A stretch of DNA of 64,000 bases from the NCBI GenBank assembly GCA_000146465.1, contig CP001945.1; one strand, given 5' to 3'. The notes beneath the pieces were generated by a model. That model searched no databases. It worked only from the letters and a program-made list of their open reading frames with translations, and was not told the DNA's origin. A program made the translations under genes and the position numbers. Below are positions 3,128 through 50,052 of this stretch, in pieces (positions within the stretch are counted from its first letter, which is position 1; every line of letters begins with the position of its first letter).

Positions 3128-4309
3128 TTAAAAACCATTCTTTATATCAAACAGGTCTAGAATAACACATATAGTTATAAGGAATCCCGTAGAAAGAAGA
3201 TCAGAAATCGATGAAATAAGTGGAAGTGCCAAGACTCCTGTGTCTTCTTCTTTCTTATCTAAATACTCAACAAGGAGGGAAATCCCACTCAGCAAAATTG
3301 TAACCTGGAAAACAAAAGATATTATAAACAATACACAGAACTCACGTGAGTATAGAATCCCCATTAGTGCTGCCATTCCAAGATAGCATAGAGACATGAG
3401 TATGGAAGCTAATACCAATGTTATATATGACTTTCTACTGTTATGAATTGTCCGATTATTGATCGATGTAAATATCCTGTGAAGATAAATGAATGCTATT
3501 GATACAGACATTCCACCAAACACAGGAAACGACGGCGCAAGAACTGGGAATCTAGTGGAAAATGTCTCAAGTACGTATCCACTAGCAGTACTAATTCCAT
3601 ATGTTGCAAGAAGAACCTCCACCGGCTGAAGAGGAATTCTCTTTTTACTGACTAGTACAAAGCAGAGACACAAAGGCATCAAGGAGATTGAGAGGAAAAT
3701 GTATGAAAGACAGGATGACGGGGAGGAGTCCCTAAACCATTTGGTAAAGTATACCAAAGACCTTACATTCGTGTAATCTCCAAAAGATGATATGGTAGGG
3801 AGAATGATATTGTCTGGATTGATGTCCATAAATTTTGACAGCTCTATAGATATTACAAGCAGTATAATGAACAAGATCGAAGTCAATATGCACGATACAA
3901 GTGCACCTGCAAGTATGGAAAGTCCTAGTCCTTCGCTCAATCCTCCTGATAAAATGCCTCCTGCCATCCCTATTAGTCCTATTACAAGTCCTATTGCTAC
4001 AGACTGTGCCAAAACCATGCTAGAGTTGTCAAAGACATATCTGAAGTACCTCCTATATATGAACAAAGGAGATTGACTCATCGACGAAAGATACATCGCA
4101 AATGTTAGTTCTATGTTGCCCTTGAATGCCAAAATGCAGTTTGCTTCGAGAATCACAGGGACGCCTGCTAAGCGGGGATCATCGGTGGCATCTATCAGTA
4201 CGGATCCCATGAGGATCAAGCCACTCAGCGATATAAGTAATCCTGGAATTGATTGTATTAGCAGGGAGGAATCATACAGTGACATATTGAACAAGTCCCC
4301 AAACATCAA
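3128..4309 (-). CDS. Polytopic membrane protein with about 10 transmembrane segments. It is possibly an MgtE/SLC41-like divalent cation transporter.
   Basis: Repeated hydrophobic helices throughout. Two internally repeated segments, DPRLAGVPVILEANCILAFKGNIELTFAMYLSS and LAPSFPVFGGMSVSIAFIYLHR, loosely resemble the duplicated MgtE-domain motif P..(G)GNL..(A)SR(I)ST.LH. The family assignment is weak. Confidence 0.4.
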   Translation of the reverse strand: MMFGDLFNMSLYDSSLLIQSIPGLLISLSGLILMGSVLIDATDDPRLAGVPVILEANCILAFKGNIELTFAMYLSSMSQSPLFIYRRYFRYVFDNSSMVLAQSVAIGLVIGLIGMAGGILSGGLSEGLGLSILAGALVSCILTSILFIILLVISIELSKFMDINPDNIILPTISSFGDYTNVRSLVYFTKWFRDSSPSSCLSYIFLSISLMPLCLCFVLVSKKRIPLQPVEVLLATYGISTASGYVLETFSTRFPVLAPSFPVFGGMSVSIAFIYLHRIFTSINNRTIHNSRKSYITLVLASILMSLCYLGMAALMGILYSREFCVLFIISFVFQVTILLSGISLLVEYLDKKEEDTGVLALPLISSISDLLSTGFLITICVILDLFDIKNGF

Positions 4310-34174: not shown

Positions 34175-35083
34175 CTAGTAAATACAGTCTGTGTTTTGGC
34201 TGCCTTCTATTAAAACTATTTCTTCTGGCATCATAATCTTTTCTTTCATAACATCTATTGGATGGTAAGCTAGGCTGTCTTTTCCTCCATCCTTTATGCA
34301 TAAGGATCTTCCTATGTGGCATTTTGTTTCAATACTATATCCAAGAATACTACATGGACTATATGGCTTGTTGCACTCTCCCTTGAACACAACGTCGTTG
34401 CACATTCCAATGTGCACAATATTGTCGTAGGCTCTTCCTATGGTATAGAGTCCAAGGATATTTGCCATGTATGCATCCCCGGGAGAAGAGAAGGCCATTA
34501 CAGGGAGACCATATCGAATTCCTGCCAGGGATGCAATTGTTCCTCCAAGCGAGTGTCCAGTGAGAACCAATCTGCTTTCCGGATATGCTTCTTTCACAGA
34601 GTCAATTATCTTCAAGGCGTCATCAAAATAGCCTATTCTACCAAACTCCATTCTCTTTTCTTCTTCGCATCTTCTGCTTTTGCATATAGAGTACAAGATC
34701 TTGTCCAAAAACTTGTCTTTCTTGGATGTTTTTCCTATTCCCATCCCCATCACAGAAAGTGTTGTTCCTTTGAACGCAATAACTATCTTCTCATCATGTC
34801 TAAAGACCTTTGCTCTTAACCCGTCTCCATCGTATCCAAACCTGGCTTGCACCGTGTCTAGATCATGGCTACTGTATGCATTTGAAGCCATCCAAATGAA
34901 TTCTAAGAGATAAATCCTCTCCAGGAAGTTTAGGGTGTGTTCTTGAAATAAGGCTGTATTTACCTTGGGACTGTTTTCCGCTCCATCTCCGGAAGGATGG
35001 GAAGTATTCCAAATCCTATAGTCCATGTCATATAAAGAGGTTTGTAGAAGATACAAAAGCATTATAAAGAAGCTTACCTCCAA
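34175..35083 (-). CDS. Class-3 lipase of the alpha/beta-hydrolase fold with an N-terminal membrane anchor, possibly Atg15-like.
   Basis: An N-terminal hydrophobic segment precedes a lipase_3 core containing the nucleophile elbow VLTGHSLGGTIASLAG. Confidence 0.65.
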   Translation of the reverse strand: MEVSFFIMLLYLLQTSLYDMDYRIWNTSHPSGDGAENSPKVNTALFQEHTLNFLERIYLLEFIWMASNAYSSHDLDTVQARFGYDGDGLRAKVFRHDEKIVIAFKGTTLSVMGMGIGKTSKKDKFLDKILYSICKSRRCEEEKRMEFGRIGYFDDALKIIDSVKEAYPESRLVLTGHSLGGTIASLAGIRYGLPVMAFSSPGDAYMANILGLYTIGRAYDNIVHIGMCNDVVFKGECNKPYSPCSILGYSIETKCHIGRSLCIKDGGKDSLAYHPIDVMKEKIMMPEEIVLIEGSQNTDCIY

Positions 35084-35122: not shown

Positions 35123-36040
35123 TTGAAGATTATGGAAAGCGTTTCGCCATGGATCATCCTTTTAGACATTATTGATCTTGCAGTAGGAGCCATCCAGCTA
35201 GGAACACAAAAAAGGATGGATGGAGTCTTGGAAAGATTCATAGTCATAGTAATGCTCAAATGTATGGAGCGAGAGATGCAGAGCAGATCTCCTCTCATAG
35301 GAGCAAGACATTTGATTGCTTGCGACTCCTCCAAACCACTCCTTACAAGAGGATTGGAATGTCTAGGAATTGTTGATTTGCCTAGATACATTTCAGAGAC
35401 CTTAGGCGAGATAAAGAGAGAGCCTGGTGCTTTTGCAGAGATCATGAGTATTTCTCTGGCTTGCTTTGTAGTCCAAGCCTTTCTGTTCAGATCATCTTCC
35501 ACCAACCTGAAGAGAAAAACCTTCCATGTCTTTGCGTTTCTTGTGTTCTACAAAGGACATCGCCTCTCATTTCTACTTAGCGAAGGCTTCTTTCTGATTT
35601 TGGGTCTGTTGTCGCCGTGTAGACATGTCAATTCTCTCCTTACACCTTACCTCAGCAGACACGATAGGGAACACAGTGTATTATCGCATGTCTATCTTTT
35701 GCTGGCTTGCACATACCCAAGGATGTTCATGAGACATAAAGAATATGTTTCGGCACTGATTTCTATATGCTTTCAAGACTCAATGGCCTCAGTTGTTGGA
35801 GAATGGTTTGGGAAGACAGAGAAATCCATACAGGGTGCAATAGGAGGAGTAGTATCCGGAATAGCAATTTATTTTGCTCTTTACAGAAAAGTCGACATGG
35901 TACTGTTCTTCATAGTTGCAGGCATAGTGGAATATCTTATTCCCATCAATGACAACATTGCCATTCCGCTTTCTGCAATTTCATACTCCTGGTTATCGAA
36001 GAAGATTATGAGCAGCATCCCTTCTTGGGCTGTGGTTTGA
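35123..36040 (+). CDS. Polytopic membrane CTP-dependent kinase-like protein, a dolichol kinase Sec59-like candidate.
   Basis: Multiple transmembrane helices are present. The C-terminal motif DSMASVVGEWFGKTEKSIQGAIGGVVSGIA fits the dolichol/phytol-kinase signature (GD..A...G..fGk....K.....G...g). Its 3' end overlaps the Rab11 3' end by 35 nt. Confidence 0.5.
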   Translation: MKIMESVSPWIILLDIIDLAVGAIQLGTQKRMDGVLERFIVIVMLKCMEREMQSRSPLIGARHLIACDSSKPLLTRGLECLGIVDLPRYISETLGEIKREPGAFAEIMSISLACFVVQAFLFRSSSTNLKRKTFHVFAFLVFYKGHRLSFLLSEGFFLILGLLSPCRHVNSLLTPYLSRHDREHSVLSHVYLLLACTYPRMFMRHKEYVSALISICFQDSMASVVGEWFGKTEKSIQGAIGGVVSGIAIYFALYRKVDMVLFFIVAGIVEYLIPINDNIAIPLSAISYSWLSKKIMSSIPSWAVV

Positions 36041-36650
36041 CCTCTTTCAGGTTTTCCTTACTGAACTCAACGCTTTTAAGTTTCCTCTTTCCTATTGAGG
36101 CTTTCTGGGTCTTTACCTTCTTGTGAATCGTCTTAACAAGTTCAAGAAATGCTTCTCGGACATTTTCTCCAGTCAGTGCCGAAGTCTCAAAAAACGACAA
36201 CTCGTTTGTAACTGCTTCATCCTTTCCCTTCTGTGTGTCCACATCTCTGTCGTCCTCTAGATCCTTTTTGTTTCCAATGAGCACAATTGGAATCTCGCTC
36301 GGTGAGAAGTCTCGAAGCTGCTTCAACCACAGACTAGTGGCCTTCTTTAGACTGTCTTTGTTTGTAATGTCGTAGACGATGGCAGCACCAGATGTTCCCC
36401 TATAATATGCCTGAACAATGGCCTGGTATCTCTCTTGCCCAGCTGTGTCCCATATCTGGGCCTTGACAATGTCCTCGCCTATCTTGAAGGTGATTGTACC
36501 AAACTCGACGCCGATTGTTGCCTTTGAATCCTTATGGAACTCGTTTCTTGTCAACTTCGAAAGAAGGTTTGTCTTTCCGACAGCCGAATCTCCTATCAAG
36601 ACTATCTTGAAGAGATAGTCGAAGTTTTCACTCTTTGTGATGCCAGGCAT
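36006..36650 (-). CDS. RAB11: Rab11-family small GTPase.
   Basis: From the internal Met, the sequence [43 protein letters not shown]...[32 protein letters not shown]...LIGNKKDL...KKGCCS is near-identical to Rab11 ([44 protein letters not shown]...[32 protein letters not shown]). The C-terminal CC prenylation motif is present. The ORF track carries a 22-aa spurious N-terminal extension. Confidence 0.9.
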   Translation of the reverse strand: [214 protein letters not shown]

Positions 36651-36735
36651 TCCAAATAAACATATAGGACTTATAAGAGCAGAATATCTAAAACCATATC
36701 CAAAACACTCCATCATCTATCATTCCTAAGGATAA

Positions 36736-39700
36736 ATGGGGAGTTTGTTTGGATCCCCGATGCTCAAGAAGATCCTTCTGAGGGCACTAAACAAGTTTCT
36801 TGGGAACTATGTAGAGAACATAGACAAACATCAGTTTGAGCTTGGAATATTCAAGGGATATGTGTCTGTATCCAACCTGAGAATCAAATCTTCTGTCATT
36901 TCGAGGCTGTTTGAGGGAAGGGTTGTGTCGAACTCGATAGGGACACTGCGAGTTCTTGTGCCTTGGAAGAGCTTTTCTAGAAAACCTATTGAAATATATG
37001 TAAAGGATGTTGACATCAAGCTTGGGAAGGCTGGGTTCTGCTGGTGCTTTCTTGATGAGAAGCTGTGTACAGAGTGTGTTGAGTACGAGAAATATGAGTT
37101 TATGACCAAGCTTGACAAGCTTAGTGTTCTGTCTGATGCTCGAGAGGACAACTCTACGCTTTTTAAGGATCTGATTGCTGGAGATGGATTCAGGGTCTTG
37201 ATTGAGAATGTAAATGTAGAATATGTAAGTGGAGCATCAATTGCTCTTCGGGTGCAGAAAGTGGAGTTCAATAAGAAAACCAAAGGAGAAGTGAAGAACA
37301 TGAAGATCTTCGATGCTGTGGGGATAGAAGTGGTTGGGGCATCGAAGGTTCTAGGCCCATTCGACATCTACAGCAAGATAAAGATGTTACCTAAAGATAT
37401 AAACCCAAGAATTGAAGTATCTCTTAATGACTTTCACGTGGAGGTGAAGCAGCAGATTGCTGAGGAGATTCTTAGGGGGGCCAGAGAATATGCCGAGGAC
37501 AGGGTACGATGGACATTGTTCAGAAGCTATCTAGAATACAGAGAGATACTAAGGACGGCTAGAGAGATGAACCTATGGAAGGACCAGGAAGATCCGGCAA
37601 GCTCGGACAGAAGTGTTGCAATGGAGATATGGAAGAGATTGATAAGACTGCAGAAAAAAGCTATGGAGTCCAAAGGCGTTGTTCTGGAGGAGATACCTGG
37701 GATAATATCAAAGATAAAGGAATACAGGGAAATCTTAGGCCGTTCGGGCCTATCCTTCAAGGAAGTAGAAAGAAAGAAGAGATGTGAAAGGGAGATTTGC
37801 TTGGAACGGTTATTGAAAGTAAAGAGAAGTTTGAGCGAGGTCTCGGAAAAGAAGTCGTGGAAGAACATCCTGTCGTTTATGAAAGAAGAAGCGAACAATA
37901 AAAGAACATCAATGATCATTCCAGCAACATTTAGTGTAGGGGAAGCTACGGTTGTGATTATTGACGAAAAGCACCAAGGATTCAAAATAGTCGTTCCCAA
38001 GACAAGAGTAGGAGTTAAAGATCTACTTTCTCCGTCCAGGCTGGATTTTAAGGGAGACAAATGGAGGCTGTATTTTATTGATGCTAGACTCAACGAACGT
38101 GATCCTCATAGCGAGTTGATTTCTCTTCTATTAGATGTAAGAGGCACGCTTATCCAGGATGGGGCCGGGCTGTATGTAAAGGGAATAGCTAAGGAATGGA
38201 AGGTGCTTGGGTATAGAAGAGAGCTTCCTCACTGCTTCGAAGGCTTTATGAGGTTAGTGAAAAGGTCTTATGTTCCTTCCTATGGATTGGCGGCTCCTAG
38301 AGGGAAAACCCGAGCAGATTTTAAGGTAGATATAGTTTCTATGGAGTCTGATCTGGAGAGATTTGTTAAGATCGAGCCGTCTAGTAGGTATGGGATCGAA
38401 TGTGCAGGGATGGTTCTTTCATATGTAAACGATGAGATCAATACAAAGAGGGCTGCATCACTAACGATATCGTCTTCCTTTGTTTACCGGGTTAATTCTG
38501 TGTCCAAAGAAAGAGAGGCTCTTTCAAACAAGATTGAGACAACGGTTCTGCTTGTTGACAATGTGTTTTATGTGAAGACGTCGATGGTGGATCTCTATGC
38601 ACATGGAGTATATCCTAATGACTTTAGAGGAAACGGAGTAGTGTTTCCTGTTGGTTTTGTTGTCCCAAACTTCGAGGTATGTTCTGATGCAATAAGGATC
38701 AATGGGCCTGACGGAAGAGCAGAACTCCAACGGATCAAGATGTCGGGAAATGGAGGAAGTATATTTGATATGGAGATTTTTAAAGGAAAAGTATTGGACT
38801 CCAATGGAAAGACAATGTGCCGGATTCCCAGGATGAAGATCGAGGCCAGAATTGGAAGGGCTCTTCTTTTGGATGTTGTGTATCTAAAGATATGCGGGAG
38901 AGCTAGAAGGATTGCAAGATTGGCACGGGGAATGACGTGGATGGCAAATGGAGAAGTGTCTACGAAAGTTATTGCAAGAATTAAAAGAATAGAAGGGGAC
39001 ATAAGGTGCAAAGGATCTATCTTAAGAATTATTGTAGATGAGTATTTCCAAGGCCTTGCGAAAAGTGTCCGAGCTGTTTTGAATGAGAGTATTATAAATA
39101 TCGAGAACTTTGAAGCCGGAGAAGAATTTGGATGGAAGTCTGCAGTGCTAACAATAAGAAAGGAGGATCTCAAGAACTTGGATGGATTTGGAAGGATATT
39201 CAAGAAAATAGGAAGTAGGTCGAGTGCCTTCAAAGCCTCTGCTGGAGGTCTGGTGATTAAGCTGCTTAATGGAGGGGAGATAGAAATAGAGAGTCTTCGG
39301 ATTTTCCGAGACGAGGGAGGTATGATTATCTATCCTTTTGAAGTTAAGGTCTTCAACACAGGTGATTCCTCAACCTCAGCAGACAGTAGGAAAAGAGAAG
39401 TGGAGATGTGTATTAGCAAAATTGAGATATCAGATACTAAAGCAACTATTGAGGGAAGTATCAAAGGAGAGATAAATGAGGAAACCCTTATCAAAATAAA
39501 GGATGGGATAAAAGAGATTCCAATCCCATCGGGGGGATCCTTAGAGACGGTTGTCTTACTTGATATATCTCTTAGTATGGTGATATCTGGAAATCCACTG
39601 AAAATAGCATGTCCTTTGACTCTTTGGCAAAAAGCGGATGAATACGAAATCACTTTGCAACAGATAGAGATTGCATCGGGAGACGGACAAAACACAAATC

Positions 39701-42700
39701 TATTTGAAGTCCACGCCAAGGGAGCAGATGGGGTATTAAGACTATCGGTAAGCAAGATGGAAATCCACATTGAACCTTTCAGGCTTGCTTCAATACTTTA
39801 TCCTCTTGTTCACGGGACTGGGGACACGGACTTTGTGAAAAAGGTAGAAGTGGATATAGAAGAGATATTTGCGAAGACCAAAAGCATAGATGGCATAAGA
39901 ATGAGGAATGTCAGATATAGAGATGAACTACTTCTACAGTTTTCTGTTTTAGATGAGCCCGGGAGTAAGGTAGCATACAAAAGAGTGAATGGATCGGAGA
40001 GCTATCTTCTTTCTGTGATCGGAGGAAGTTACGAGTTGAGTTCTTTGGCTGCTCTTGTTTCCTTCTGTTCATCTGAATATATGCAGATATACTCGAAGTT
40101 TGGAATTCAGGTTTCCAGGGCTCGGCTCCATGTGTTGTGTATGGACCTTAAGGTGTTACTAGGCGATGCTCTGTTTGCCCTTCGGATCAATCTTCCTATT
40201 GTATATTTCGATATGGAAGATCTAAACTCCTTTAAAGGAAGGGCTCTTTGCTCACTAGACGTCTATGATTCAAATTCTATGGAATTTATTCCCTTTATTG
40301 AAGAAAATGTGCTTCTAGCAAGGAAATACGGAACCTTCTTGGATGTAAGAACGCTTACAAAATTAAGGATTCTGTATTTGGACGAAATCACAAGCACAAT
40401 CTGGAGTCTCTTTGCATCGGAAGAAACAGGAATAACGATGTTTGGGAAGCCTTTCCGTAACAAAGTTAGCATAAGAAACATCACGGACACAGTGCTATGG
40501 GTCAAGACTAAAAGATATGCTGGGAGAGTCGGGAAAGGACAATTCCACGAGTTTGATGTAGACTATGACGAGCATAGAATTCAAATTGGAAAGGATGAAG
40601 CATGTGCCTTGGTTTATATTGTCAACAGCTGTTCTACCTCCTTTGTTTCTGAAGGGAAGAGTTTTGTTATAGAAGTGACATACGATGGAAAACTAAGGGG
40701 CATAACAATTACACATGTCTTGTCGTTCCTTAATCTCTGTGATATTGAGTTGATGGGGAAGATGGACTACCTTGATGGGTCTGCTTTGGAGCTGCATATG
40801 CTCCCTGAGTTCCACCATACAATTCCACAAGAGAAAGACTTCTTTCTGGAGATAGGCATGCATGGAAAGTATGTTTCTGCCGGAAAGATAAATGTCAGTT
40901 CGGCTCCGAAGGATGCAACCTCCACCTTTGGAATGATATGCAAGCTGGGCTTAGTAGAAATAGGGATCGACACGGTTGTTAGAAATGCAGGGTCTGTTTC
41001 TTGTGTTGTGATAATTCTCTATCCAATTTTTGAAGTGATGAATAGAACAGCATCCGTATTGAACTTAATCCTCTCTGTTGGAAAAGACAATACTCCTGGT
41101 GGGGAAAGTGAAACTCAAAAAAAGAACATTCCGCTTTCGGTCGATAGAGATTGTAAAGAAGACATATATGGGATTAGCTTTTCTGAGCTTCCTCTTCTCT
41201 ATGTGCAGAGTCTTGGAAGTCGAGCTACTGCCAGGGCGTTTGAAAATAAGGCATCCATCGAAATCAACTCCCATTACTCTGGAGAAATAAGAAAGGAGCA
41301 GGCTGAGATAATATCTTTTTTCGGAAGGCATACTCTTGCACATCGGATCAGAATGGTAATATATTCCCCTATGGTGATTATAAACCACCTTGGAAATGAT
41401 ATCTGGATAAATGGAGCCCGGTTTGGGCCAGGACCTTCATGCTCCAACCGGCTGAAGGATATACACAGCTTGGCTGTTGGGGAATATAGTATTGAGGAAT
41501 CCGTGGAGGTCGGAAAGAAGTTTACCAAAGCCTTTATTCTGAAGAAAAGGGGTTTTAAAGGCCACAAGACCTGGAAATCTCATGAAGGCCAGGAATGGTC
41601 CAATGAAGCCATATTTGGAGGATTTGGGCCTAAAACGGGAATACAACCAAGTTGCATCCGTCTTCTACTAGAGTTTGGGGAGGATCAAGGTAGAAGAATA
41701 ATTGAGTGCAAGTACACCTACCTGATTAGAAATCAATCCCAAATGAGACTTCTGGCTGTATCGGAGCATGTATGTTACTATGTGGAACCCCATGAAGAGG
41801 TACCTCTCAATACATCCACAAATGGATTCTATCTGTTCATTGCAGATTCAGTGAATATTAGATCCCCAAGGCTTTCTGGAGTGTTTATTCCATTGGACAT
41901 TAAGATAAGGAAATACTTTAAGCTTCAAGGTTCCGATGCCATTTTGTTCAGCGTGAGCAAAGTCACGGACTCTGGACAGCATGTATTTGGGATAAGAACT
42001 GAAAAATATTGGCCTTATACGATACACAATGGGATAGATGTTGGTCTGAGATTCAGCCAGAAATATGATACTATTGAGCATTATGTGGAAAAGGGATCTG
42101 TTTATAGATATGCGCCAGACAGTCTGATGCTTGATCCAGAGATACTATTGTGCATTGAAGATCAAATAATTCAGGTAAACCTTAACGAGGATCAGGTCTT
42201 ACTTGTTCATGGAATTACAGTGTCCATATCCCAGGGAAGTACTACAAGGGTTGTTCGGGTTTCCAGAGGGGAGATCTCTAGTAGTGAGTGTAGGATTTGT
42301 TTAGGAATAGTAATTGACAGCTTATCTATATCGTTGGTGAATAAGGAAGGGAATGAGGTTTTATGCAGCCATATAGAAGGCCTGGAGATTGGAGCAGAAT
42401 GTATTTCAAGAGAAGCTGGAATTCCAGAGTTGATGGCTCATCCAAAATATGTGGAATTTGTAATTCAAGGAACAGCTGAAAGCATTCAGGTGGATAATCA
42501 GAGCTTATTCTGTGCATTTCCAGTGGTTTTCCATCCTCTTGACAAGTATTTGAGGATAGAAACCGAAAGAAGAAATAGAAAGAAACTTCTTGTATTTGAT
42601 TTTACATTTGGGAGTTCGGCACAGAATGTCTCCGTATCAAATCTGTACTTCAAAACAGAGGCCTTTGCACTGAACATTGAAGAAAACCTGGCCAAGAGCA

Positions 42701-43857
42701 TTAGGGAGATGTTTCTTAGGAAAAAAGAGAGAGAGGTAAAAAGCTACGAAAAAAACCTAAGAATCCAGAATCTAAAGATGGAGAGAATGGGTGCAAAGGT
42801 GAATTTCCTCAAGGATATAGAATCTGGTTTTGTTTCCAATGTTGTGGGATTATTTATCAACAACATAAGTGACTTCTCTTTGGAAATAGATGGGATGAAG
42901 GAAACATGCTTGTATACGACTTTCCAAGAGCTTGAAGATCTTCTGGCTTCTTTCTACTTATCTCAGCTTCAGAAAAATCTCTACAAGGTTCTTACGCACT
43001 TGGACTTTATGGGAAACATAGGAAGTTTCACCGAGTCTGTATCCATAGGAATTAAGGATCTTCTTACCGAGCCTTCCTTGAACTCCAATGTAGCTTGTGG
43101 AATCTTCAAGGGAGGAAAGAGTTTCTTGAAGAACACCATTTATGGTGTTTCTAACACAGTTGGAAAATTCTCTAAAAGCATAGGAACAAGTGCTAAGTTC
43201 ATTGGATGCAGTGCGGATCCTAAACACGAAAAATTCCGCCATTCCTATGCACGTGATATGCATCTTCTTATACCCCGGGCTAGACATTCAAAAGGTCCAA
43301 TGACATCTATACTCAAAGGAACAGGAAATCTTTTTGACTCGATAACGCGTGGAATGGTGGGGATAGCAACTTCTCCTGTGGAAGGAGCCTCAAATGGTGT
43401 TGCTGGTGTTGTGAAGGGATTGGGAAAAGGAGTCCTTGGTGCCTTTGCCGGACCGATCGCAGAAGTTGCCGACCTTGTAACTAATATTTCTGACACCATA
43501 AAGACGTCCATGAATGGAAGAGTCAAAAGGATCCAATATCCAAGGCCCGCAGGATTCCTTGGATGGTACGATGAGGGATTGAGCCAAGGCTTCTATATAT
43601 TTATGTCTATGGCCGGGAAAGTTCATGAAGAAGAAAGGTTTGTGGATGGGACATTTGGGGATTTTAACGGAAGATGCCAGCTGGTTTTGACAACAAGAAG
43701 ACTACTAATATCAGATACTACCACTATTCTTGACGTGTGCTTAGGAAGTATAGTTGTTGAAGGAGACGATCGAAAGTTAAAAATCGGAGAGTTCATCATG
43801 TCCATCGAAAGGCCCTCATTTGTTGCTTCCGTGAAGTCAATAATTGAAAGATGTTGA
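36736..43857 (+). CDS. VPS13: VPS13-family bridge-like lipid-transfer protein, reduced to 2373 aa.
   Basis: The N-terminal chorein-N motif KKILLRALNKFLGNYVENIDKHQFELGIFKGYVSVSNLRIKSSVIS...GTLRVLVPWKSF aligns with VPS13 ([43 protein letters not shown]...GKVTLQIPF). The single uninterrupted ORF is very long. Confidence 0.8.
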   Translation: MGSLFGSPMLKKILLRALNKFLGNYVENIDKHQFELGIFKGYVSVSNLRIKSSVISRLFEGRVVSNSIGTLRVLVPWKSFSRKPIEIYVKDVDIKLGKAGFCWCFLDEKLCTECVEYEKYEFMTKLDKLSVLSDAREDNSTLFKDLIAGDGFRVLIENVNVEYVSGASIALRVQKVEFNKKTKGEVKNMKIFDAVGIEVVGASKVLGPFDIYSKIKMLPKDINPRIEVSLNDFHVEVKQQIAEEILRGAREYAEDRVRWTLFRSYLEYREILRTAREMNLWKDQEDPASSDRSVAMEIWKRLIRLQKKAMESKGVVLEEIPGIISKIKEYREILGRSGLSFKEVERKKRCEREICLERLLKVKRSLSEVSEKKSWKNILSFMKEEANNKRTSMIIPATFSVGEATVVIIDEKHQGFKIVVPKTRVGVKDLLSPSRLDFKGDKWRLYFIDARLNERDPHSELISLLLDVRGTLIQDGAGLYVKGIAKEWKVLGYRRELPHCFEGFMRLVKRSYVPSYGLAAPRGKTRADFKVDIVSMESDLERFVKIEPSSRYGIECAGMVLSYVNDEINTKRAASLTISSSFVYRVNSVSKEREALSNKIETTVLLVDNVFYVKTSMVDLYAHGVYPNDFRGNGVVFPVGFVVPNFEVCSDAIRINGPDGRAELQRIKMSGNGGSIFDMEIFKGKVLDSNGKTMCRIPRMKIEARIGRALLLDVVYLKICGRARRIARLARGMTWMANGEVSTKVIARIKRIEGDIRCKGSILRIIVDEYFQGLAKSVRAVLNESIINIENFEAGEEFGWKSAVLTIRKEDLKNLDGFGRIFKKIGSRSSAFKASAGGLVIKLLNGGEIEIESLRIFRDEGGMIIYPFEVKVFNTGDSSTSADSRKREVEMCISKIEISDTKATIEGSIKGEINEETLIKIKDGIKEIPIPSGGSLETVVLLDISLSMVISGNPLKIACPLTLWQKADEYEITLQQIEIASGDGQNTNLFEVHAKGADGVLRLSVSKMEIHIEPFRLASILYPLVHGTGDTDFVKKVEVDIEEIFAKTKSIDGIRMRNVRYRDELLLQFSVLDEPGSKVAYKRVNGSESYLLSVIGGSYELSSLAALVSFCSSEYMQIYSKFGIQVSRARLHVLCMDLKVLLGDALFALRINLPIVYFDMEDLNSFKGRALCSLDVYDSNSMEFIPFIEENVLLARKYGTFLDVRTLTKLRILYLDEITSTIWSLFASEETGITMFGKPFRNKVSIRNITDTVLWVKTKRYAGRVGKGQFHEFDVDYDEHRIQIGKDEACALVYIVNSCSTSFVSEGKSFVIEVTYDGKLRGITITHVLSFLNLCDIELMGKMDYLDGSALELHMLPEFHHTIPQEKDFFLEIGMHGKYVSAGKINVSSAPKDATSTFGMICKLGLVEIGIDTVVRNAGSVSCVVIILYPIFEVMNRTASVLNLILSVGKDNTPGGESETQKKNIPLSVDRDCKEDIYGISFSELPLLYVQSLGSRATARAFENKASIEINSHYSGEIRKEQAEIISFFGRHTLAHRIRMVIYSPMVIINHLGNDIWINGARFGPGPSCSNRLKDIHSLAVGEYSIEESVEVGKKFTKAFILKKRGFKGHKTWKSHEGQEWSNEAIFGGFGPKTGIQPSCIRLLLEFGEDQGRRIIECKYTYLIRNQSQMRLLAVSEHVCYYVEPHEEVPLNTSTNGFYLFIADSVNIRSPRLSGVFIPLDIKIRKYFKLQGSDAILFSVSKVTDSGQHVFGIRTEKYWPYTIHNGIDVGLRFSQKYDTIEHYVEKGSVYRYAPDSLMLDPEILLCIEDQIIQVNLNEDQVLLVHGITVSISQGSTTRVVRVSRGEISSSECRICLGIVIDSLSISLVNKEGNEVLCSHIEGLEIGAECISREAGIPELMAHPKYVEFVIQGTAESIQVDNQSLFCAFPVVFHPLDKYLRIETERRNRKKLLVFDFTFGSSAQNVSVSNLYFKTEAFALNIEENLAKSIREMFLRKKEREVKSYEKNLRIQNLKMERMGAKVNFLKDIESGFVSNVVGLFINNISDFSLEIDGMKETCLYTTFQELEDLLASFYLSQLQKNLYKVLTHLDFMGNIGSFTESVSIGIKDLLTEPSLNSNVACGIFKGGKSFLKNTIYGVSNTVGKFSKSIGTSAKFIGCSADPKHEKFRHSYARDMHLLIPRARHSKGPMTSILKGTGNLFDSITRGMVGIATSPVEGASNGVAGVVKGLGKGVLGAFAGPIAEVADLVTNISDTIKTSMNGRVKRIQYPRPAGFLGWYDEGLSQGFYIFMSMAGKVHEEERFVDGTFGDFNGRCQLVLTTRRLLISDTTTILDVCLGSIVVEGDDRKLKIGEFIMSIERPSFVASVKSIIERC

Positions 43858-43943
43858 CAGACATCAGATATGCAGTGTAAAAAACCAAAGATCTAATAAA
43901 ATTTTATCATTAATAAATGCATATGGCTCTGCCATGATGTCTT

Positions 43944-44849
43944 CTACAAGAAATAGTCAGGGATTCTGGTGGAGACAAGGGTTTCGATCTTTGTAGGTGA
44001 GGGCTCAAACTGAGTAAAGCTGTATGTTCCATATTCATCCATTTCCATGAGCGTGGCTAAATTCCCACACCTATAGCAGTAATTTGGGGCACTAAATATG
44101 GTGACGCATCCCTTTTCATGGCTCCAATTGAATCCATTCATCACAAGCTGATGTGCCCTGCATATCATCTTCAATCCATTTCTCTCATTAAATGCATCTG
44201 TTATATCCTTTCCAAATGTAAATCCTGCACCTCGAGGAGAAGGCCCCCATCCAAGTTTTTCATCTGGGTCGGACCAGAGGAGATCACACATAGGGCCTTC
44301 GTGTGGAATCTCAACCTTCCTATCGATAGCCTTCAACTGGTCCAGTGTGTCAAACGATGGACTCAATCCCCCATGGCAGCAGAACGTGTCGTTCCCAACA
44401 ACAGCTGCAACAGGCAGGAAATCAAAGAGGTCTGTAAAGTATCTCCACACAAGAGATGTTCCATACTTTCTGACACATTCATCATAGAACCCATACACTT
44501 GAGTTATTTGCCTACTTTCATGGTTTCCCCTAAGTAGCCATACCCTATCAGGATATTTCACCTTTAAACATAGCAAAATGGAGATTGTTTCAACCGAATG
44601 GTATCCTCTATCTACATAGTCTCCCATAAATAAGTAATTTGTATATGGCGGAAGGCCTCCAACCTTGAACAATTCCATAAGATCGTAGAACTGCCCGTGG
44701 ACATCTCCGCATATTGTTACCGGTGCCTTGACACTAACAACATTTTCTTCCTTCATCAACATTTCAGTTGCCTTTTCACACAGGTCCTTTACCTCTGCCT
44801 CCGTTAGTAAATTACATTTGAATAGCTTCTCAAGATAGCTCTCGATCAT
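43944..44849 (-). CDS. Serine/threonine protein phosphatase 2A-family catalytic subunit.
   Basis: Motifs [49 protein letters not shown], the [11 protein letters not shown] region and the C-terminal DYFL are characteristic of the PP2A, PP4 and PP6 catalytic subunits. Confidence 0.9.
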
Positions 44850-45103: not shown

Positions 45104-45901
45104 ATGACAAATAGCTCAGCCTTCACTTCAAGCGACAACGAACAATACTCTACAGCAGTAGATAAAATGCATATCAAGCCTTTTTATGAAATACTCTGGT
45201 CTTCCAGTGACAACATCGAGCTTGAGGACTTGGGAAACGACCCTTTTGTGGATAATAGTGTCTTTGATTCGATTGGAATCTCCCACCTAAGACCATCAGG
45301 GAAGGAAGGAAAGTGCAAGGAGAAAGGCATGTGGACGTCTCTGCATGGGGTCCGGAATCAAAACAGAGCCTCCCCTGCACCCGTTGCGGGAAGGCATCTC
45401 ATAGATTTTTGGAAAGACTTCAGCAATGGTGAGGTTTTTTCTCTTCCCACTCTTGGACCTGGAAAAAGTGACAGCATCCAGAGGATTTCCGTTGATGTTG
45501 CTAAACAGGTTGTCGAAGGGATGTATAACATAGATTACTTGGTGATCGATTGCAGATTCCCATACGAGTATCAAGGAGGACACATAAGAAACGCGGTAAA
45601 CATAAGCTCCGCCAGGGAGTTGGGGATCCTCTTTCGGAAGCCTAAGGTTTTAATCTTCCACTGCGAATTCTCATCCATAAGAGCCCCGAAACTTGCTCAG
45701 TATCTTCGGAACATGGACAGGATGAAGAACCCATATCCTCTCCTGACCATTCCTGAGGTGTATGTCATGGAAGGGGGATACAGGAAGTTTTACAGCAAGT
45801 ATCCAAGCCTATGTGATCCAAAAGGATACATAACAATGGGCAGTCTTGGCTATAGAGATCTGTATAAAAAAAACAAATTTAGATCAAATAAACGATACTA
45901 A
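45104..45901 (+). CDS. CDC25: Cdc25-type dual-specificity phosphatase (rhodanese fold), an M-phase inducer.
   Basis: The sequence IDCRFPYEYQGGHIRNAVNI...VLIFHCEFSSIRAPKLAQYLRNMDRMKNPYPLLTIPEVYVMEGGYRKFY matches the Cdc25 catalytic domain ([21 protein letters not shown]...[46 protein letters not shown]), including the active-site CX5R motif HCEFSSIR. Confidence 0.8.
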   Translation: MTNSSAFTSSDNEQYSTAVDKMHIKPFYEILWSSSDNIELEDLGNDPFVDNSVFDSIGISHLRPSGKEGKCKEKGMWTSLHGVRNQNRASPAPVAGRHLIDFWKDFSNGEVFSLPTLGPGKSDSIQRISVDVAKQVVEGMYNIDYLVIDCRFPYEYQGGHIRNAVNISSARELGILFRKPKVLIFHCEFSSIRAPKLAQYLRNMDRMKNPYPLLTIPEVYVMEGGYRKFYSKYPSLCDPKGYITMGSLGYRDLYKKNKFRSNKRY

Positions 45902-47656: not shown

Positions 47657-48241
47657 TTACTTTTCCAGAATTACCATAAAACTTCTTTCGATCTTCTCGG
47701 TTATGCTCCTGTCGGGAGCTGAAACTCCTTTCTTCCTACTGGAAGGAACTACAAAGTACAAATCCCTAATCTTCTCATTGATAAACTTGGGTGTGACAGT
47801 CACTCTTCTTGGAGATATAGGAAAATCTCCTTCTAAAGCCACTACATAATCATCAGACTCCAGCTCCTTGCATCCAGGGGGAAGAGAGCAAATGTGCCCA
47901 TCTCCGCCTATCCCGAGAAGACATACATCGATGTCCGGGAGCTCTGCAGAATACATCTTGGCTGCCTCATCCAAAGGTCTTGAAGTCCATATTCGATGCA
48001 CGTCTGCGTTGGTCTTGCTTATAAATCCTATTGATCCAGTGTAGTTCAAATGGTTTTGGTCTGCTCTCTCATCAGAATAGAATATTCTCCACCCCGAGGT
48101 GTCCATAGTCAGGTATCTTTTGTCCTCAAGGCATTGAAGTAGAGACCCTCCAGAGATCATCAGTGCTAAGCTTCTTCCAGAGTATTCTTTTAAGATTCGA
48201 TATATCTCTGTGCTGAAGTCTTCTGTAAACAAAACATCCAT
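47657..48241 (-). CDS. 6-phosphogluconolactonase of the pentose-phosphate pathway.
   Basis: The motifs LALMISGGSLLQ, WRIFYSDER and DVCLLGIGGDGHICSLPPG match 6PGL (FALGLSGGSL ... FFCDERLVP ... DLLILGVGPDGHTCSLFPD). Start is taken at the internal Met MDVLFTEDF, whose beta-strand aligns with the 6PGL N-terminus. The ORF track extends to 48376 and would then overlap RPL22. Confidence 0.7.
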   Translation of the reverse strand: MDVLFTEDFSTEIYRILKEYSGRSLALMISGGSLLQCLEDKRYLTMDTSGWRIFYSDERADQNHLNYTGSIGFISKTNADVHRIWTSRPLDEAAKMYSAELPDIDVCLLGIGGDGHICSLPPGCKELESDDYVVALEGDFPISPRRVTVTPKFINEKIRDLYFVVPSSRKKGVSAPDRSITEKIERSFMVILEK

Positions 48242-48311
48242 TAGGGGTTTAAGACTAATCGGACAAAGATCTAGAAACAGGATTAATGGCTGTTTAGAAA
48301 AAACCCATATT

Positions 48312-48650
48312 TTATTCTTCCTTACCTTCCTCAACATTAATATACTTGAGTTCAAATCCATCTGGCCCTTGTGCAAAAATCTTGATGAAAGCCCTAAGCT
48401 TCTTCATATGTAGAAACCTTGCTATCTGCCACTTTATTCCCCGCTTTGGTATAAATCCTCCTGTGACATTCACTTCAACAATGTTCCCGCTCACCTCGAT
48501 CTGGAGAAGCTTTTCCTTCTTTCCCATGTGGCATTTGATCTTCTGTTGAAGAAATGCCCCCAGGTCCGAAGGAGAGACGAGACTGTCGGATGCCGGCTTT
48601 GTACAGTCAACAGTAAACTTCCTTGTGGTCTTCTCCGATGCCGTTGCCAT
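48312..48650 (-). CDS. RPL22: 60S ribosomal protein L22e.
   Basis: The sequence KFTVDCTKPASDSLVSPSDLGAFLQQKIKC...IEVSGNIVEVN matches RPL22 ([30 protein letters not shown]...[35 protein letters not shown]). An acidic C-terminus is present. The upstream motif CCAAAATTTTTCACCCC lies 9 nt before the ATG. Confidence 0.85.
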   Translation of the reverse strand: MATASEKTTRKFTVDCTKPASDSLVSPSDLGAFLQQKIKCHMGKKEKLLQIEVSGNIVEVNVTGGFIPKRGIKWQIARFLHMKKLRAFIKIFAQGPDGFELKYINVEEGKEE

Positions 48651-48709
48651 TTGTCTTATTGGGGTGAAAAATTTTGGCTCCAGAAGAACACAAAACTGAG
48701 CTTTGGATT

Positions 48710-49999
48710 TTAGAGGCCTAGCTCAATGGAGTCTCCACCAAAATAGCCTTGCAAAACATCGGGGATGCTAATCCCTCTCTCATTTTGATAGTTTTCCACA
48801 ATGCAGCATAGTGTCCGTTGAATTGCACACATGGTTCCATTCAGTAAATGGACGTAAACCTTGCGGTTGTTCTCCTTGGCAATTCCATACCTGATCTCAA
48901 GCTCTCTCGACTGGTAATCCGTGCAGTTTGAGCAAGAAACCAACTCTCTGTATTTCTCTGCATTCGGGAAATACGCCTCAAGATCGTACTTCATGACTGC
49001 TGCATCATTCAACTCCCCAGATACAATGCTTACAACATTATAACTTATGTCTAATGACTGGTAGAACTCTTCACATATTTTTATCATCTCTTCATGATGT
49101 CTTTCAGACTCCTCAGGGCTGCATATTACAAACTGTTCAATCTTCTCAAACTGATGGACCCGGAATAGCCCTGCATTATCTTTTCCATGGGCTCCAGCTT
49201 CCTTTCTGAAGCAGAGAGACTGCCCACAGAACTTTTTGGGAGTCTCCTGAGGAACAATTCTTTCGTCCATGTACAGTGCTGCGAGAGACTGCTCAGACGT
49301 TGCAACAAGATACAGGTCGTCCTCAACCTTGTAGAGCTGATCGTCAAAATCACTTAGCTGTGATGTCTTTCCCATCACGTCTCTTTTGAGCATCACCGGT
49401 GTTTGGATATAGACATAGCCCTTGTTCTCAAGAAAGTCAATAGCATATCTCGAAAGAGCCTGTGCTAGCCTGGCCATCTTTCCAGATAGATAGTATCCTC
49501 GATGCCCTACCACCTTTGCCCCTGCTTCCGGATGAGTGAAGTCTTTCATTAGCACACAAAAAGGCTTTGGATCTTTCTTTATGCTTCTTCCACTTCTATA
49601 GGACCTTATAATCTCATTGTCCTTTTCGTCATTACTGACCACAACTTTGGGAGAAATAATGTTTCCTATCCCTTTCATCACCTTACTAAGCTCATCTTCG
49701 ATAACCTTTACATCTTCTTTGAGTCTTTTTGCTTCCCCCTGAATGTCTTTCATCTCTTTAACTTTTTCTCCAAGATCTGCATCCTCTTTATTCTTTCCCT
49801 GCTTGTATCCCGACTTTATCTCTCTGTCCAGTTGGTTAACTCGAGTATTGATTTGGTCGAGCCGGAAGTTGGTTTCTATCTTTCTTCTGTCCAATTCATA
49901 GGCCCTTTCAACACCTGTTCCATCTCGAAACCGCTTCTTCTCGCTCTCAACCACCTTTTCACGGCTCTTTTCATCTCTAATTAGACCGATGTCGATCAT
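48710..49999 (-). CDS. SES1: Seryl-tRNA synthetase, class II.
   Basis: From the internal Met MIDIGLIRDEK, an N-terminal coiled-coil arm is followed by a class II core containing FRKEAGAHGKDNAGLFRVHQFEKIEQF. This matches SerRS motif 2/3 (FRSEAGS.GRDTRGIFRVHQFEKIEQF). Confidence 0.9.
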   Translation of the reverse strand: MIDIGLIRDEKSREKVVESEKKRFRDGTGVERAYELDRRKIETNFRLDQINTRVNQLDREIKSGYKQGKNKEDADLGEKVKEMKDIQGEAKRLKEDVKVIEDELSKVMKGIGNIISPKVVVSNDEKDNEIIRSYRSGRSIKKDPKPFCVLMKDFTHPEAGAKVVGHRGYYLSGKMARLAQALSRYAIDFLENKGYVYIQTPVMLKRDVMGKTSQLSDFDDQLYKVEDDLYLVATSEQSLAALYMDERIVPQETPKKFCGQSLCFRKEAGAHGKDNAGLFRVHQFEKIEQFVICSPEESERHHEEMIKICEEFYQSLDISYNVVSIVSGELNDAAVMKYDLEAYFPNAEKYRELVSCSNCTDYQSRELEIRYGIAKENNRKVYVHLLNGTMCAIQRTLCCIVENYQNERGISIPDVLQGYFGGDSIELGL

Positions 50000-50052
50000 T
50001 CCTGGGGATCCATCCAAACATTTTATCGAAGAAAGTAAATCAAAACATCTTT

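What the first reader, a model, noticed from the sequence alone, without database searches (positions are those of the whole stretch)
36736..43857. Retained but shrunken VPS13 (2373 aa) in a minimal genome
Canonical VPS13 proteins have more than 3000 aa. Here the chorein-N motif is clear, but the protein is about 25% shorter. The fact that a 7-kb gene for bulk lipid transfer is retained suggests non-vesicular lipid supply is indispensable to this organism. One possibility is supply to expanding membranes such as the polaroplast or plasma membrane during development. The shortened repeat region could define a minimal functional bridge.
Basis: inference. Interest (0 to 1): 0.5.

Follow-up and report, generated by a model that had tools for sequence, protein, structure and literature searches.

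The report
Compact but complete VPS13 lipid bridge
This is the already-annotated VPS13 lipid-transfer gene of the microsporidian parasite Encephalitozoon intestinalis; it is 25% shorter than yeast Vps13, about as much as most proteins of this parasite, and every canonical VPS13 domain is still detectable, so it is an ordinary compacted gene and not a stripped-down new kind of bridge.

Summary
The ORF is real: 36736..43857 (+), 2373 codons. The true start is probably the second ATG at 36760, giving 2365 aa. That protein is 100% identical to the NCBI 'vacuolar protein sorting-associated protein' of Encephalitozoon intestinalis ATCC 50506.

It is a genuine VPS13, not ATG2. I found a chorein-N end, a beta-rich rod, a complete six-repeat VAB adaptor-binding domain (Foldseek to PDB 7u8t, E 6e-29; six invariant Asn), post-VAB groove strands, ATG_C-type helices and a PH-like C-terminus.

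The '25% shorter' figure is correct (2365/3144 = 0.75 of yeast) but unremarkable. [quoted passage not shown]

About 80% of the deficit lies in the pre-VAB rod, which is 0.66 of yeast length. VAB is 0.86, RBG11-12 is 0.88 and the C-terminus is 0.96.

A medium-confidence AlphaFold2 model (pLDDT 59) still shows about ten five-strand units before the VAB, the canonical number. Compaction appears spread over loops and short strands, with no whole repeats deleted.

The 'minimal shortened bridge' idea is therefore not supported, although the unit count is not proven. The proposed polaroplast role is untested.

The parts
36736..43857 (+).
   Evidence: the ORF listing and translation.
36755..36762 (+). 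CCCC motif followed by the probable true start codon, ATG at 36760, which gives a 2365-aa protein
   Evidence: The sequence is GGATCCCCGATG. The NCBI protein is 2365 aa and 100% identical. M1 is invariant in 11 orthologues. The CCC-like motif upstream of Encephalitozoon start codons is described in PMC2803860.
36760..37239 (+). RBG1 / chorein-N (residues 1-160 of the 2365-aa protein): an N-terminal helix plus 4 strands
   Evidence: Pfam VPS13_N, E 2.6e-16. PDB sequence hits to 6cbc and the VPS13A N-terminus. hhalign probability 98.9%. AF2 DSSP shows H2-15 plus 4 strands. This is the best-conserved module, 81% identical to E. cuniculi.
37240..37923 (+). RBG2 (residues 161-230) and the helical insert (residues 231-388) that follows it
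   Evidence: AF2 DSSP. The global hhalign places Q178-377 against Pichia 241-453 with mean confidence 4.4-5.0. S. cerevisiae also has a 190-aa gap between RBG2 and RBG3.
37924..40455 (+). Central rod, inferred RBG3-RBG10 (residues 389-1232): eight groups of about 5 beta-strands, most followed by a short helix
   Evidence: AF2 N-half (pLDDT 65-85 in most units, but below 55 in unit 5 and in unit 10 of that model) and AF2 C-half for the end of unit 10. Deletions among orthologues avoid the predicted strands (OR 0.32, p 2e-12). The global profile alignment to canonical VPS13 is colinear. Single units are not detectably homologous. There are no phmmer relatives outside the Encephalitozoon/Ordospora clade.
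40456..42270 (+). VAB (Vps13 adaptor-binding) domain, residues 1233-1837: six repeats of about 9 strands. The invariant Asn codons are at 40477, 40732, 41041, 41383, 41731 and 42028.
   Evidence: Foldseek top hit is 7u8t_B (E 6.4e-29, prob 1.00, TMt 0.56, 682 columns). AF2 pLDDT is mostly 80-90. hhalign to canonical VPS13 gives probability 100, E 7.9e-61. Six Asn are conserved across 24-32 sequences (five invariant, N1325 in at least 90%). The codons were verified as AAC/AAT.
42271..42918 (+). Post-VAB groove strands (RBG11-12, formerly the 'APT1' region), residues 1838-2053
   Evidence: hhalign of this unit to Pichia 2672-2745 gives probability 95.7%. The profile matches VPS13C 3207-3662 (E 1e-55). 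AF2 shows long strands at fragment 677-888. The QxDNQ...FP motif (Q1910, D1912, P1921) is invariant across all sequences.
42919..43512 (+). ATG_C-type helical region, residues 2054-2251
   Evidence: phmmer matches VPS13C 3401-3658 to ORF residues 2070-2328 (E 2.5e-22). A Gly-rich block is invariant (G2085...G2224). AF2 predicts helices at fragment 890-1086, though with pLDDT mostly below 60. Identity to E. cuniculi is 74%.
43639..43854 (+). C-terminal PH-like domain, residues 2294-2365 (7 strands plus a terminal helix)

Best explanation
The gene encodes the VPS13 orthologue of Encephalitozoon intestinalis. VPS13 is a bridge-like lipid-transfer protein.

Shown here: the protein keeps the whole canonical VPS13A/yeast-type architecture. 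The parts, in order, are:
- a chorein-N end
- a long beta-rich rod
- a six-repeat VAB adaptor-binding domain inserted in the rod
- two further groove units after the VAB
- ATG_C-type helices
- a PH-like C-terminus

Inferred from established knowledge of the family: the N-terminal end docks at a donor membrane, normally the ER. Phospholipids slide along the hydrophobic face of the groove. The VAB, ATG_C and PH modules anchor the other end on an acceptor membrane through adaptors, lipids or scramblases.

The protein is 25% shorter than yeast Vps13 because of the general sequence compaction of microsporidian proteins. About 80% of the missing residues come from the pre-VAB rod, where inter-unit loops are halved and the strand units are about 30% smaller. 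The globular targeting modules stay at 86-96% of yeast size.

The number of groove units, and therefore probably the length of the bridge, appears unchanged at 10 before and 2 after the VAB. Which membranes it connects in the parasite is unknown. Because microsporidia lack ERMES, ER-to-mitosome supply is one plausible job. Expanding sporont and spore membranes are another.
For: Identity and annotation: 100% identical to the NCBI E. intestinalis protein. Orthologues of 2365-2419 aa exist in E. romaleae, E. cuniculi, E. hellem and Ordospora, and relatives of 2457-2552 aa include Conglomerata obtusa.

Sequence family: only VPS13 chains are hit in the PDB, with no ATG2 or BLTP1-3 hits.

C-terminal half: hhalign probability 100, E 7.9e-61, 1083 columns, from just before the VAB to the C-terminus.

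VAB: Foldseek to 7u8t E 6.4e-29. Six conserved Asn (five invariant, one in at least 90% of sequences), each ending the first strand of a nine-strand repeat.

Rod:
- The AF2 N-half shows 53 strand elements grouped into about 10 units, most followed by a helix.
- Its best structural matches are bridge-like LTPs: LPD-3/BLTP1 (3e-15), Vps13 fragment 6cbc (5e-7), Atg2 N-terminus (7e-7).
- Predicted strands are more hydrophobic and carry more local period-2 alternation than non-strand pieces (element-level p 1e-5).
- Orthologue deletions avoid the strands (p 2e-12).

Compaction pattern (ratios to S. cerevisiae, boundaries from PMC7613979):
- whole protein 0.75
- rod 0.66 (units 0.71, inter-unit 0.51)
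- VAB 0.86
- RBG11-12 0.88
- C-terminus 0.96
- unit-end positions decline smoothly from 0.78 to 0.66

Baseline: the median microsporidian orthologue is 21% shorter than yeast, with domains at 89% and linkers at 70%.

ERMES is absent from microsporidia (PMC10648710).
Against: - The N-half model is only medium confidence (mean pLDDT 59, pTM 0.34, 14-sequence alignment). Unit 5 and several loops are below 50.
- Individual units 2-10 show no significant profile similarity to canonical units (all below 6% probability), so one-to-one orthology of units is not demonstrated.
- A crude amphipathic-segment counter found about half as many excess segments as in the canonical control (12.7 vs 22.5). The control recovered under half of its known 49 strands, so the test is weak.
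- Strict whole-strand alternation is significant for only 3 of 47 strands.
- No model coordinates were available, so continuity and hydrophobicity of the groove were not measured.
- Pfam detects only 85 N-terminal residues, below its gathering score.
- No functional, expression or localisation data were examined.
Confidence: 0.8

Rival explanations
1. Truly shortened bridge: the pre-VAB rod has lost one to three RBG units. The protein would then span a narrower membrane gap and would represent a minimal functional VPS13, analogous to the 9-RBG plant VPS13X.
For: - The rod is only 0.66 of yeast length. Units 2 and 5 are about half the size of their yeast counterparts.
- Unit 5 is poorly predicted, with pLDDT below 55.
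- The amphipathic-segment excess is about 0.5-0.6 of the canonical control.
- Unit-level orthology cannot be shown by sequence.
- Shorter VPS13 forms with fewer RBG units exist elsewhere: Arabidopsis VPS13X has 9 and worm VPS13D has 11.
Against: [quoted passage not shown] It has 53 strand elements (about 47-49 once broken strands are merged), close to the canonical 49.
- The global profile alignment is colinear with no canonical block larger than about 130 aa left unmatched. Two-thirds of the canonical-extra residues fall outside the predicted strands.
- Unit-end ratios decline smoothly with no step.
- The pattern fits the known genome-wide linker and domain trimming.
Confidence: 0.17
2. The protein belongs to a different bridge-like lipid-transfer family (ATG2, BLTP1/Tweek, BLTP2/Hobbit or BLTP3/SHIP164) and merely shares the chorein-N end.
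For: - The best Foldseek E-value of the N-half is to LPD-3/BLTP1 (3e-15), ahead of the Vps13 fragment (5e-7). Atg2 N-terminal domains score similarly.
- Three orthologues give faint Pfam ATG2_CAD hits (E at best 0.014).
Against: - A complete six-repeat VAB domain is present. Levine 2022 (PMC7613979) treats VAB repeats as definitive for VPS13 over ATG2.
- All significant PDB sequence hits are VPS13A, VPS13C or Vps13.
- The LPD-3 hit reflects that it was the only long RBG rod in that structure library, and its TM-score is only 0.15.
Confidence: 0.01
3. The gene is a decaying relic, or a scaffold or tether that no longer conducts lipids. Its length would be kept only for tethering or adaptor binding.
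For: - The middle of the rod evolves very fast: units 7-8 are only 31-38% identical between E. intestinalis and E. cuniculi, and there are no phmmer relatives outside the clade.
- Whole-strand hydrophobic alternation is weak.
- According to the preprint, most microsporidian orthologues fail to complement yeast.
Against: - The 7.1-kb ORF is intact in a 2.2-Mb genome under strong deletion pressure, and its length is conserved within about 2% across Encephalitozoon and Ordospora.
- Both lipid-entry and lipid-exit ends are the best conserved parts (RBG1 81%, ATG_C 74%).
- Predicted strands are hydrophobic (mean Kyte-Doolittle hydropathy (KD) +0.32, against -0.49 elsewhere) with local alternation.
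- Rod sequences are poorly conserved in all RBG proteins, because only the amphipathic pattern is constrained.
Confidence: 0.02

Closest known systems
S. cerevisiae Vps13 and human VPS13A (the 12-RBG 'ancient form' of VPS13; Levine 2022, PMC7613979)
   Same: The order of parts is the same: chorein-N/RBG1, RBG2 followed by a long helical insert, about eight further five-strand units, a six-repeat VAB with one conserved Asn per repeat, RBG11-12, ATG_C helices and a C-terminal PH-like domain. The apparent unit count is also the same, 10 before and 2 after the VAB. The C-terminal 1200 aa are colinear, with hhalign probability 100.
   Different: The protein is 25% shorter (2365 vs 3144 and 3174 aa). 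The rod is 0.66 of yeast length, with inter-unit loops halved and units about 30% smaller. The rod sequence has diverged so far that Pfam VPS13_N beyond position 85, VPS13_M, VAB and VPS13_C all fail to score. There is no WWE insert, which human VPS13A has in RBG11.
Arabidopsis VPS13X (At3g50380), the known short VPS13 with 9 RBG domains
   Same: It is a VPS13 identified by its VAB repeats despite a divergent, reduced rod. It shows that RBG number can vary within the family.
   Different: VPS13X really has fewer RBG units (9) yet is 3125 aa long and carries extra domains (Ricin, helices). The microsporidian protein is much shorter but seems to keep all units. This is compaction and not loss of repeats.
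ATG2 (8 RBG units in human ATG2B, 2078 aa)
   Same: It has a chorein-N end, an RBG groove, ATG_C-type C-terminal helices and a similar overall length (about 2000-2400 aa).
   Different: ATG2 has no VAB repeats and no C-terminal PH domain. The protein here has both, and it has no significant sequence match to ATG2.

Membership tests
VPS13 (bridge-like lipid-transfer protein, RBG superfamily) | N-terminal chorein-N / RBG1 (an N-terminal helix replacing the first strand, plus 4 strands) | tested here: met
   Pfam VPS13_N positions 1-85, E 2.6e-16. PDB hits to the VPS13A N-terminus and 6cbc. hhalign probability 98.9%. AF2 shows H2-15 plus 4 strands.
VPS13 (bridge-like lipid-transfer protein, RBG superfamily) | Pfam curated (gathering) threshold for VPS13_N, and detection of VPS13_M, VAB and VPS13_C by Pfam | tested here: not met
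   VPS13_N scores 59.1 bits against a cut-off of 80. No other VPS13 Pfam model is hit in this protein. Only 4 of 11 orthologues give faint VAB hits, E at best 0.015. This reflects sequence divergence, because profile-profile and fold comparison recover the domains.
VPS13 (bridge-like lipid-transfer protein, RBG superfamily) | Long rod of repeating beta-groove units (12 in the ancestral VPS13A/yeast form: 10 before and 2 after the VAB) | tested here: inconclusive
   AF2 shows about 10 five-strand groups before the VAB and further groove strands after it. The best fold matches are bridge-like LTPs. However, N-half pLDDT is 59, unit-level homology is not detectable, and an independent strand counter was uninformative.
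VPS13 (bridge-like lipid-transfer protein, RBG superfamily) | Continuous hydrophobic groove lining | tested here: inconclusive
   Predicted strands are more hydrophobic (KD +0.32 vs -0.49) and show more local period-2 alternation (p 1e-5). Strict whole-strand alternation is significant in only 3 of 47 strands.
VPS13 (bridge-like lipid-transfer protein, RBG superfamily) | VAB domain: six all-beta repeats, each with a conserved Asn, inserted between RBG10 and RBG11 (family-specific) | tested here: met
   Foldseek to 7u8t_B gives E 6.4e-29, prob 1.00 and 682 aligned columns. DSSP shows six groups of nine strands. N1240, N1325, N1428, N1542, N1658 and N1757 align with Pichia N1948, N2072, N2201, N2308, N2426 and N2530.
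VPS13 (bridge-like lipid-transfer protein, RBG superfamily) | C-terminal ATG_C-type helices followed by a PH-like domain | tested here: met
VPS13 (bridge-like lipid-transfer protein, RBG superfamily) | Binds and transfers glycerophospholipids between membranes at contact sites | not testable with these tools
   This needs biochemistry and cell biology.
ATG2 | Chorein-N plus RBG rod plus ATG_C, without VAB repeats or a C-terminal PH domain | tested here: not met
   A VAB domain and a PH-like domain are present. There is no significant ATG2 sequence hit in the PDB searches.

The most novel reading that the evidence does not exclude
The Encephalitozoon protein may be the smallest VPS13 that keeps the complete 12-unit groove and all targeting domains. 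It would be about 640 aa shorter than the shortest full VPS13 in Levine's catalogue (S. pombe, 3004 aa). Five-strand RBG units would be squeezed to about 75-115 aa and inter-unit loops to about 10-15 aa. If so, it defines the minimal sequence needed per groove unit. It would also be a convenient full-length target for structure determination, and for asking which loops of larger VPS13s are regulatory and which are structural. It might additionally be the only bulk lipid bridge left in a cell without ERMES.
Probability: 0.35. Interest if true: 0.4.

Novelty: already known. Interest (0 to 1): 0.2.

Why it matters
As a discovery it matters little. The gene is already annotated as VPS13 in several Encephalitozoon genomes, and its shortness matches a published genome-wide trend.

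The useful residue is descriptive. In this lineage, compaction removed roughly a third of the rod's residues but spared the VAB, ATG_C and PH modules and, apparently, the number of groove units. That suggests bridge length and adaptor docking are the constrained properties of VPS13, while most loop sequence is dispensable. A 2365-aa complete VPS13 could serve as a compact model for structural work.

No paper in the searched library discusses microsporidian VPS13.

Tried and rejected
1. It detects only 85 N-terminal residues, below the gathering score. VAB, VPS13_M and VPS13_C are invisible in this protein, and Pfam does not report ATG_C even in canonical fungal VPS13. I replaced it with profile-profile alignment and AF2 plus Foldseek.

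2. Unit-by-unit hhalign of each putative RBG against canonical VPS13. Only RBG1 and RBG11 are significant, so unit orthology cannot be shown.

3. Counting amphipathic beta segments as an AF2-independent strand count, with a shuffle null and a canonical positive control. The control recovered an excess of only about 22 against 49 known strands. The test is uninformative, though it leans towards fewer or less clean strands in E. intestinalis.

4. A permutation test for strict alternation over whole strands. Only 3 of 47 strands were significant, which is underpowered.

5. Exhaustive phmmer of rod residues 378-1145 against 1.84 billion representatives. It found only 4 relatives, all in the Encephalitozoon/Ordospora clade, so it gave no bridge to canonical sequences.

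6. Deepening the AF2 alignments with sequences from the third homology search.

8. The look-up of encoding contigs returned no record for the E. intestinalis protein.

9. ATG2 or another BLTP family was considered and rejected because the VAB is present. The pseudogene reading was rejected because the ORF is intact and its length is conserved.
Full report
**Observation.** The window carries one uninterrupted ORF at 36736..43857 on the + strand, 2373 codons plus stop. Its product, read from the second methionine, is 100% identical to the NCBI protein 'vacuolar protein sorting-associated protein [Encephalitozoon intestinalis ATCC 50506]', 2365 aa. So the window is microsporidian and the gene is already annotated.

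Several facts favour the second ATG (36760) as the real start:
- The first ATG adds only MGSLFGSP and lies 19 nt from the start of the divergent upstream gene.
- The second ATG is residue 1 of all 11 aligned orthologues.
- It matches position 1 of Pfam VPS13_N.
- It is directly preceded by CCCC, the CCC-like motif reported immediately upstream of most Encephalitozoon start codons, whose 5'UTRs are shorter than 7 nt (PMC2803860).

All residue numbers below use the 2365-aa protein. Add 8 for the ORF numbering.

**Is it VPS13?** Pfam alone is nearly blind. It finds only VPS13_N positions 1-85 (E 2.6e-16, 59 bits, below the 80-bit gathering score) and nothing else. Orthologues fare no better.

More sensitive methods recover the family:
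- Sequence searches of the PDB hit only VPS13 chains. These are VPS13C residues 3401-3658 (E 2.5e-22), the VPS13A N-terminus and the Vps13 fragment 6cbc.
- A profile of 11 microsporidian orthologues raises the VPS13C match to E 1e-55 over 3207-3662.
- Profile-profile alignment against ten canonical VPS13s gives probability 100 and E 7.9e-61 over 1083 columns. It aligns residues ~1156-2357 with Pichia Vps13 ~1857 to the C-terminus. That span covers everything from the last pre-VAB unit through the VAB, the post-VAB groove, ATG_C and the Pfam VPS13_C/PH region (Pichia domain coordinates).

**VAB domain.** Six asparagines are conserved in alignments of 24-32 microsporidian and canonical sequences: N1240, N1325, N1428, N1542, N1658 and N1757. 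Five are invariant and N1325 is present in at least 90% of sequences. They align with Pichia N1948, N2072, N2201, N2308, N2426 and N2530, and the codons were checked in the window.

An AlphaFold2 model of residues 1166-2365 (24-sequence alignment, mean pLDDT 75.5, pTM 0.58) shows an all-beta region that falls into six groups of nine strands. Each conserved Asn closes the first strand of its group. Foldseek's top PDB match is the solved Vps13 adaptor-binding domain 7u8t (E 6.4e-29, probability 1.00, TMt 0.56, 682 columns).

According to Levine 2022 (PMC7613979), VAB repeats identify a protein definitively as VPS13 and not ATG2. After the VAB, the model has long groove strands, a helical block (ATG_C region, low pLDDT) and a seven-strand plus terminal helix PH-like domain.

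**Where did the missing 25% go?** Using conserved landmarks, the 824-aa deficit against Parasitella Vps13 (3189 aa) splits as follows:

| Segment | Residues missing |
|---|---|
| Before the first VAB Asn | 665 |
| Within the VAB | 46 |
| After the last VAB Asn | 113 |

Ratios to the published S. cerevisiae boundaries (Levine 2022, Supplementary Data File 1) are as follows:

| Module | E. intestinalis / S. cerevisiae |
|---|---|
| Whole protein | 0.75 |
| Rod up to the end of RBG10 | 0.66 |
| VAB plus linkers | 0.86 |
| RBG11-12 | 0.88 |
| C-terminus | 0.96 |

**Are repeats lost?** The AF2 model of residues 1-1200 is only of medium confidence (14 sequences, mean pLDDT 59, pTM 0.34). Most strand groups have pLDDT 65-85. 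Its secondary structure reads as follows:
- an N-terminal helix plus 4 strands
- 5 short strands
- a ~150-aa helical insert
- eight more groups of about five strands, most closed by a short helix

That makes ten units. [quoted passage not shown] The 53 strand elements become about 47-49 once broken strands are merged, against 49 canonical strands.

The ends of the ten units fall at 1.02, 0.78, 0.78, 0.74, 0.69, 0.69, 0.68, 0.67, 0.66 and 0.66 of the yeast positions. That is a smooth decline with no step. Summed units are 0.71 of yeast and inter-unit segments are 0.51.

The supporting evidence is indirect:
- A global profile alignment of the N-terminal halves is colinear (probability 99) and leaves no canonical block larger than about 130 aa unmatched. 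It is confident only at Q1-377, Q726-818 and Q1145-1254.
- It puts 524 of 775 canonical-extra residues outside the predicted strands.
- Deletions among microsporidian orthologues avoid the predicted strands (52/555 vs 153/621 positions, OR 0.32, p 2e-12).
- Predicted strands are more hydrophobic than the rest (KD +0.32 vs -0.49) and contain more local period-2 alternation (element-level p 1e-5).
- The best fold matches of the N-half are bridge-like lipid-transfer proteins: LPD-3/BLTP1 3e-15, Vps13 6cbc 5e-7 and Atg2 7e-7.

The evidence against, or missing, is:
- Single units 2-10 have no significant similarity to canonical units.
- The rod's middle has no phmmer relatives outside the Encephalitozoon/Ordospora clade among 1.84 billion representatives.
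- A crude amphipathic-segment counter gave roughly half the canonical excess, although its positive control failed to recover most known strands.
- Strict whole-strand alternation is rarely significant.

I put about 0.65 on 'all 12 units retained' and about 0.17 on a truly shorter rod.

**Is the shrinkage remarkable?** No. Jiang et al. [quoted passage not shown] Domains are at 89% and linkers at 70% of yeast length.

VPS13 at 75%, with its globular modules at 86-96% and its loop-rich rod at 66%, fits that pattern. All microsporidian-type orthologues found here are 2365-2552 aa, with a 1222-1324-aa stretch before the first VAB Asn, against 1905-2050 aa in the canonical proteins compared (Parasitella, Pichia, Pomacea). 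The compaction is therefore old and shared. One unnamed relative sits on a metagenome contig with 26-37-nt intergenic gaps, typical of such compact genomes.

**Mechanism.**

Shown here: a complete VPS13 architecture, with the two ends as the best conserved parts. RBG1 is 81% and ATG_C 74% identical to E. cuniculi, against 31-38% for units 7-8.

Inferred from family knowledge: ER-docked chorein-N end, lipid flow along the groove, and acceptor-side anchoring through VAB, ATG_C and PH.

Inferred and untested: the acceptor membranes. Microsporidia lack ERMES (PMC10648710). From my own knowledge, in yeast Vps13 backs up ERMES and is needed for prospore-membrane expansion. ER-to-mitosome supply and membrane expansion during sporogony are therefore plausible, and the polaroplast idea is neither supported nor excluded.

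**Novelty.** The gene is already annotated as VPS13 in public records, and the length reduction is a known genome-wide phenomenon. No paper in the library mentions microsporidian VPS13. The observation that compaction spared unit number and targeting domains is a modest new description, not a new kind of system.

**Verdict.** Interest is low (0.2).

Noticed in passing
window 36736-36762: There are two in-frame ATGs 24 nt apart. The second (36760) is preceded by CCCC and matches the start of all orthologues and the NCBI annotation. The first leaves only 19 nt to the divergent upstream gene.
   Followed up: yes
window 36006-36716 (-): A 236-aa Ras/Rab-family small GTPase (Pfam Ras, E 2e-55) is transcribed divergently from VPS13, with a shared intergenic region of only 19-43 nt. 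I did not examine whether this head-to-head pairing of two membrane-traffic genes is conserved in other microsporidia.
   Followed up: partly
window 34175-35083 (-) and 35123-36040 (+): A 302-aa alpha/beta-hydrolase with a class-3 lipase motif (E 1e-7) lies two genes upstream of VPS13. A 305-aa TTG-start ORF next to it has no Pfam match and overlaps the end of the GTPase gene, so it may not be a real gene or may start later.
   Followed up: partly
window 43858-44849 and 45104-45901: Downstream there is a convergent 301-aa PP1/PP2A-type phosphatase (Metallophos, E 1e-46). It is separated from the VPS13 stop by 86 nt that contain two AATAAA-like signals (around 43887 and 43913). A 265-aa rhodanese-domain protein follows (E 8e-12).
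   Followed up: partly
window 38800-39800 (residues ~680-1020 of the protein): Evolutionary rates within one protein are very uneven. Rod units 7-8 are only 31-38% identical between E. intestinalis and E. cuniculi, while RBG1 is 81% and the ATG_C region 74%. Units 4-5 (72-73%) are unexpectedly well conserved for rod segments, which may mark a partner-binding surface.
   Followed up: partly
window 36001-44000 vs 48001-56000: GC skew is consistently positive (+0.13 to +0.30) across the + strand VPS13 gene and strongly negative (-0.19 to -0.32) at 48-56 kb. This suggests a coding-strand purine bias that tracks gene orientation. No tRNA genes were found in the whole window.
   Followed up: no
L002 (JGI metagenome 3300010965, contig Ga0138308_102914), 501-7874: An unnamed 2457-aa VPS13 has the same compact pre-VAB rod (first VAB Asn at 1222). 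It sits in a gene-dense contig with 26-37-nt intergenic gaps, next to a Rad23-like UBA/ubiquitin protein and an MFS transporter. This is probably an uncultured microsporidian or a similarly compacted eukaryote.
   Followed up: partly
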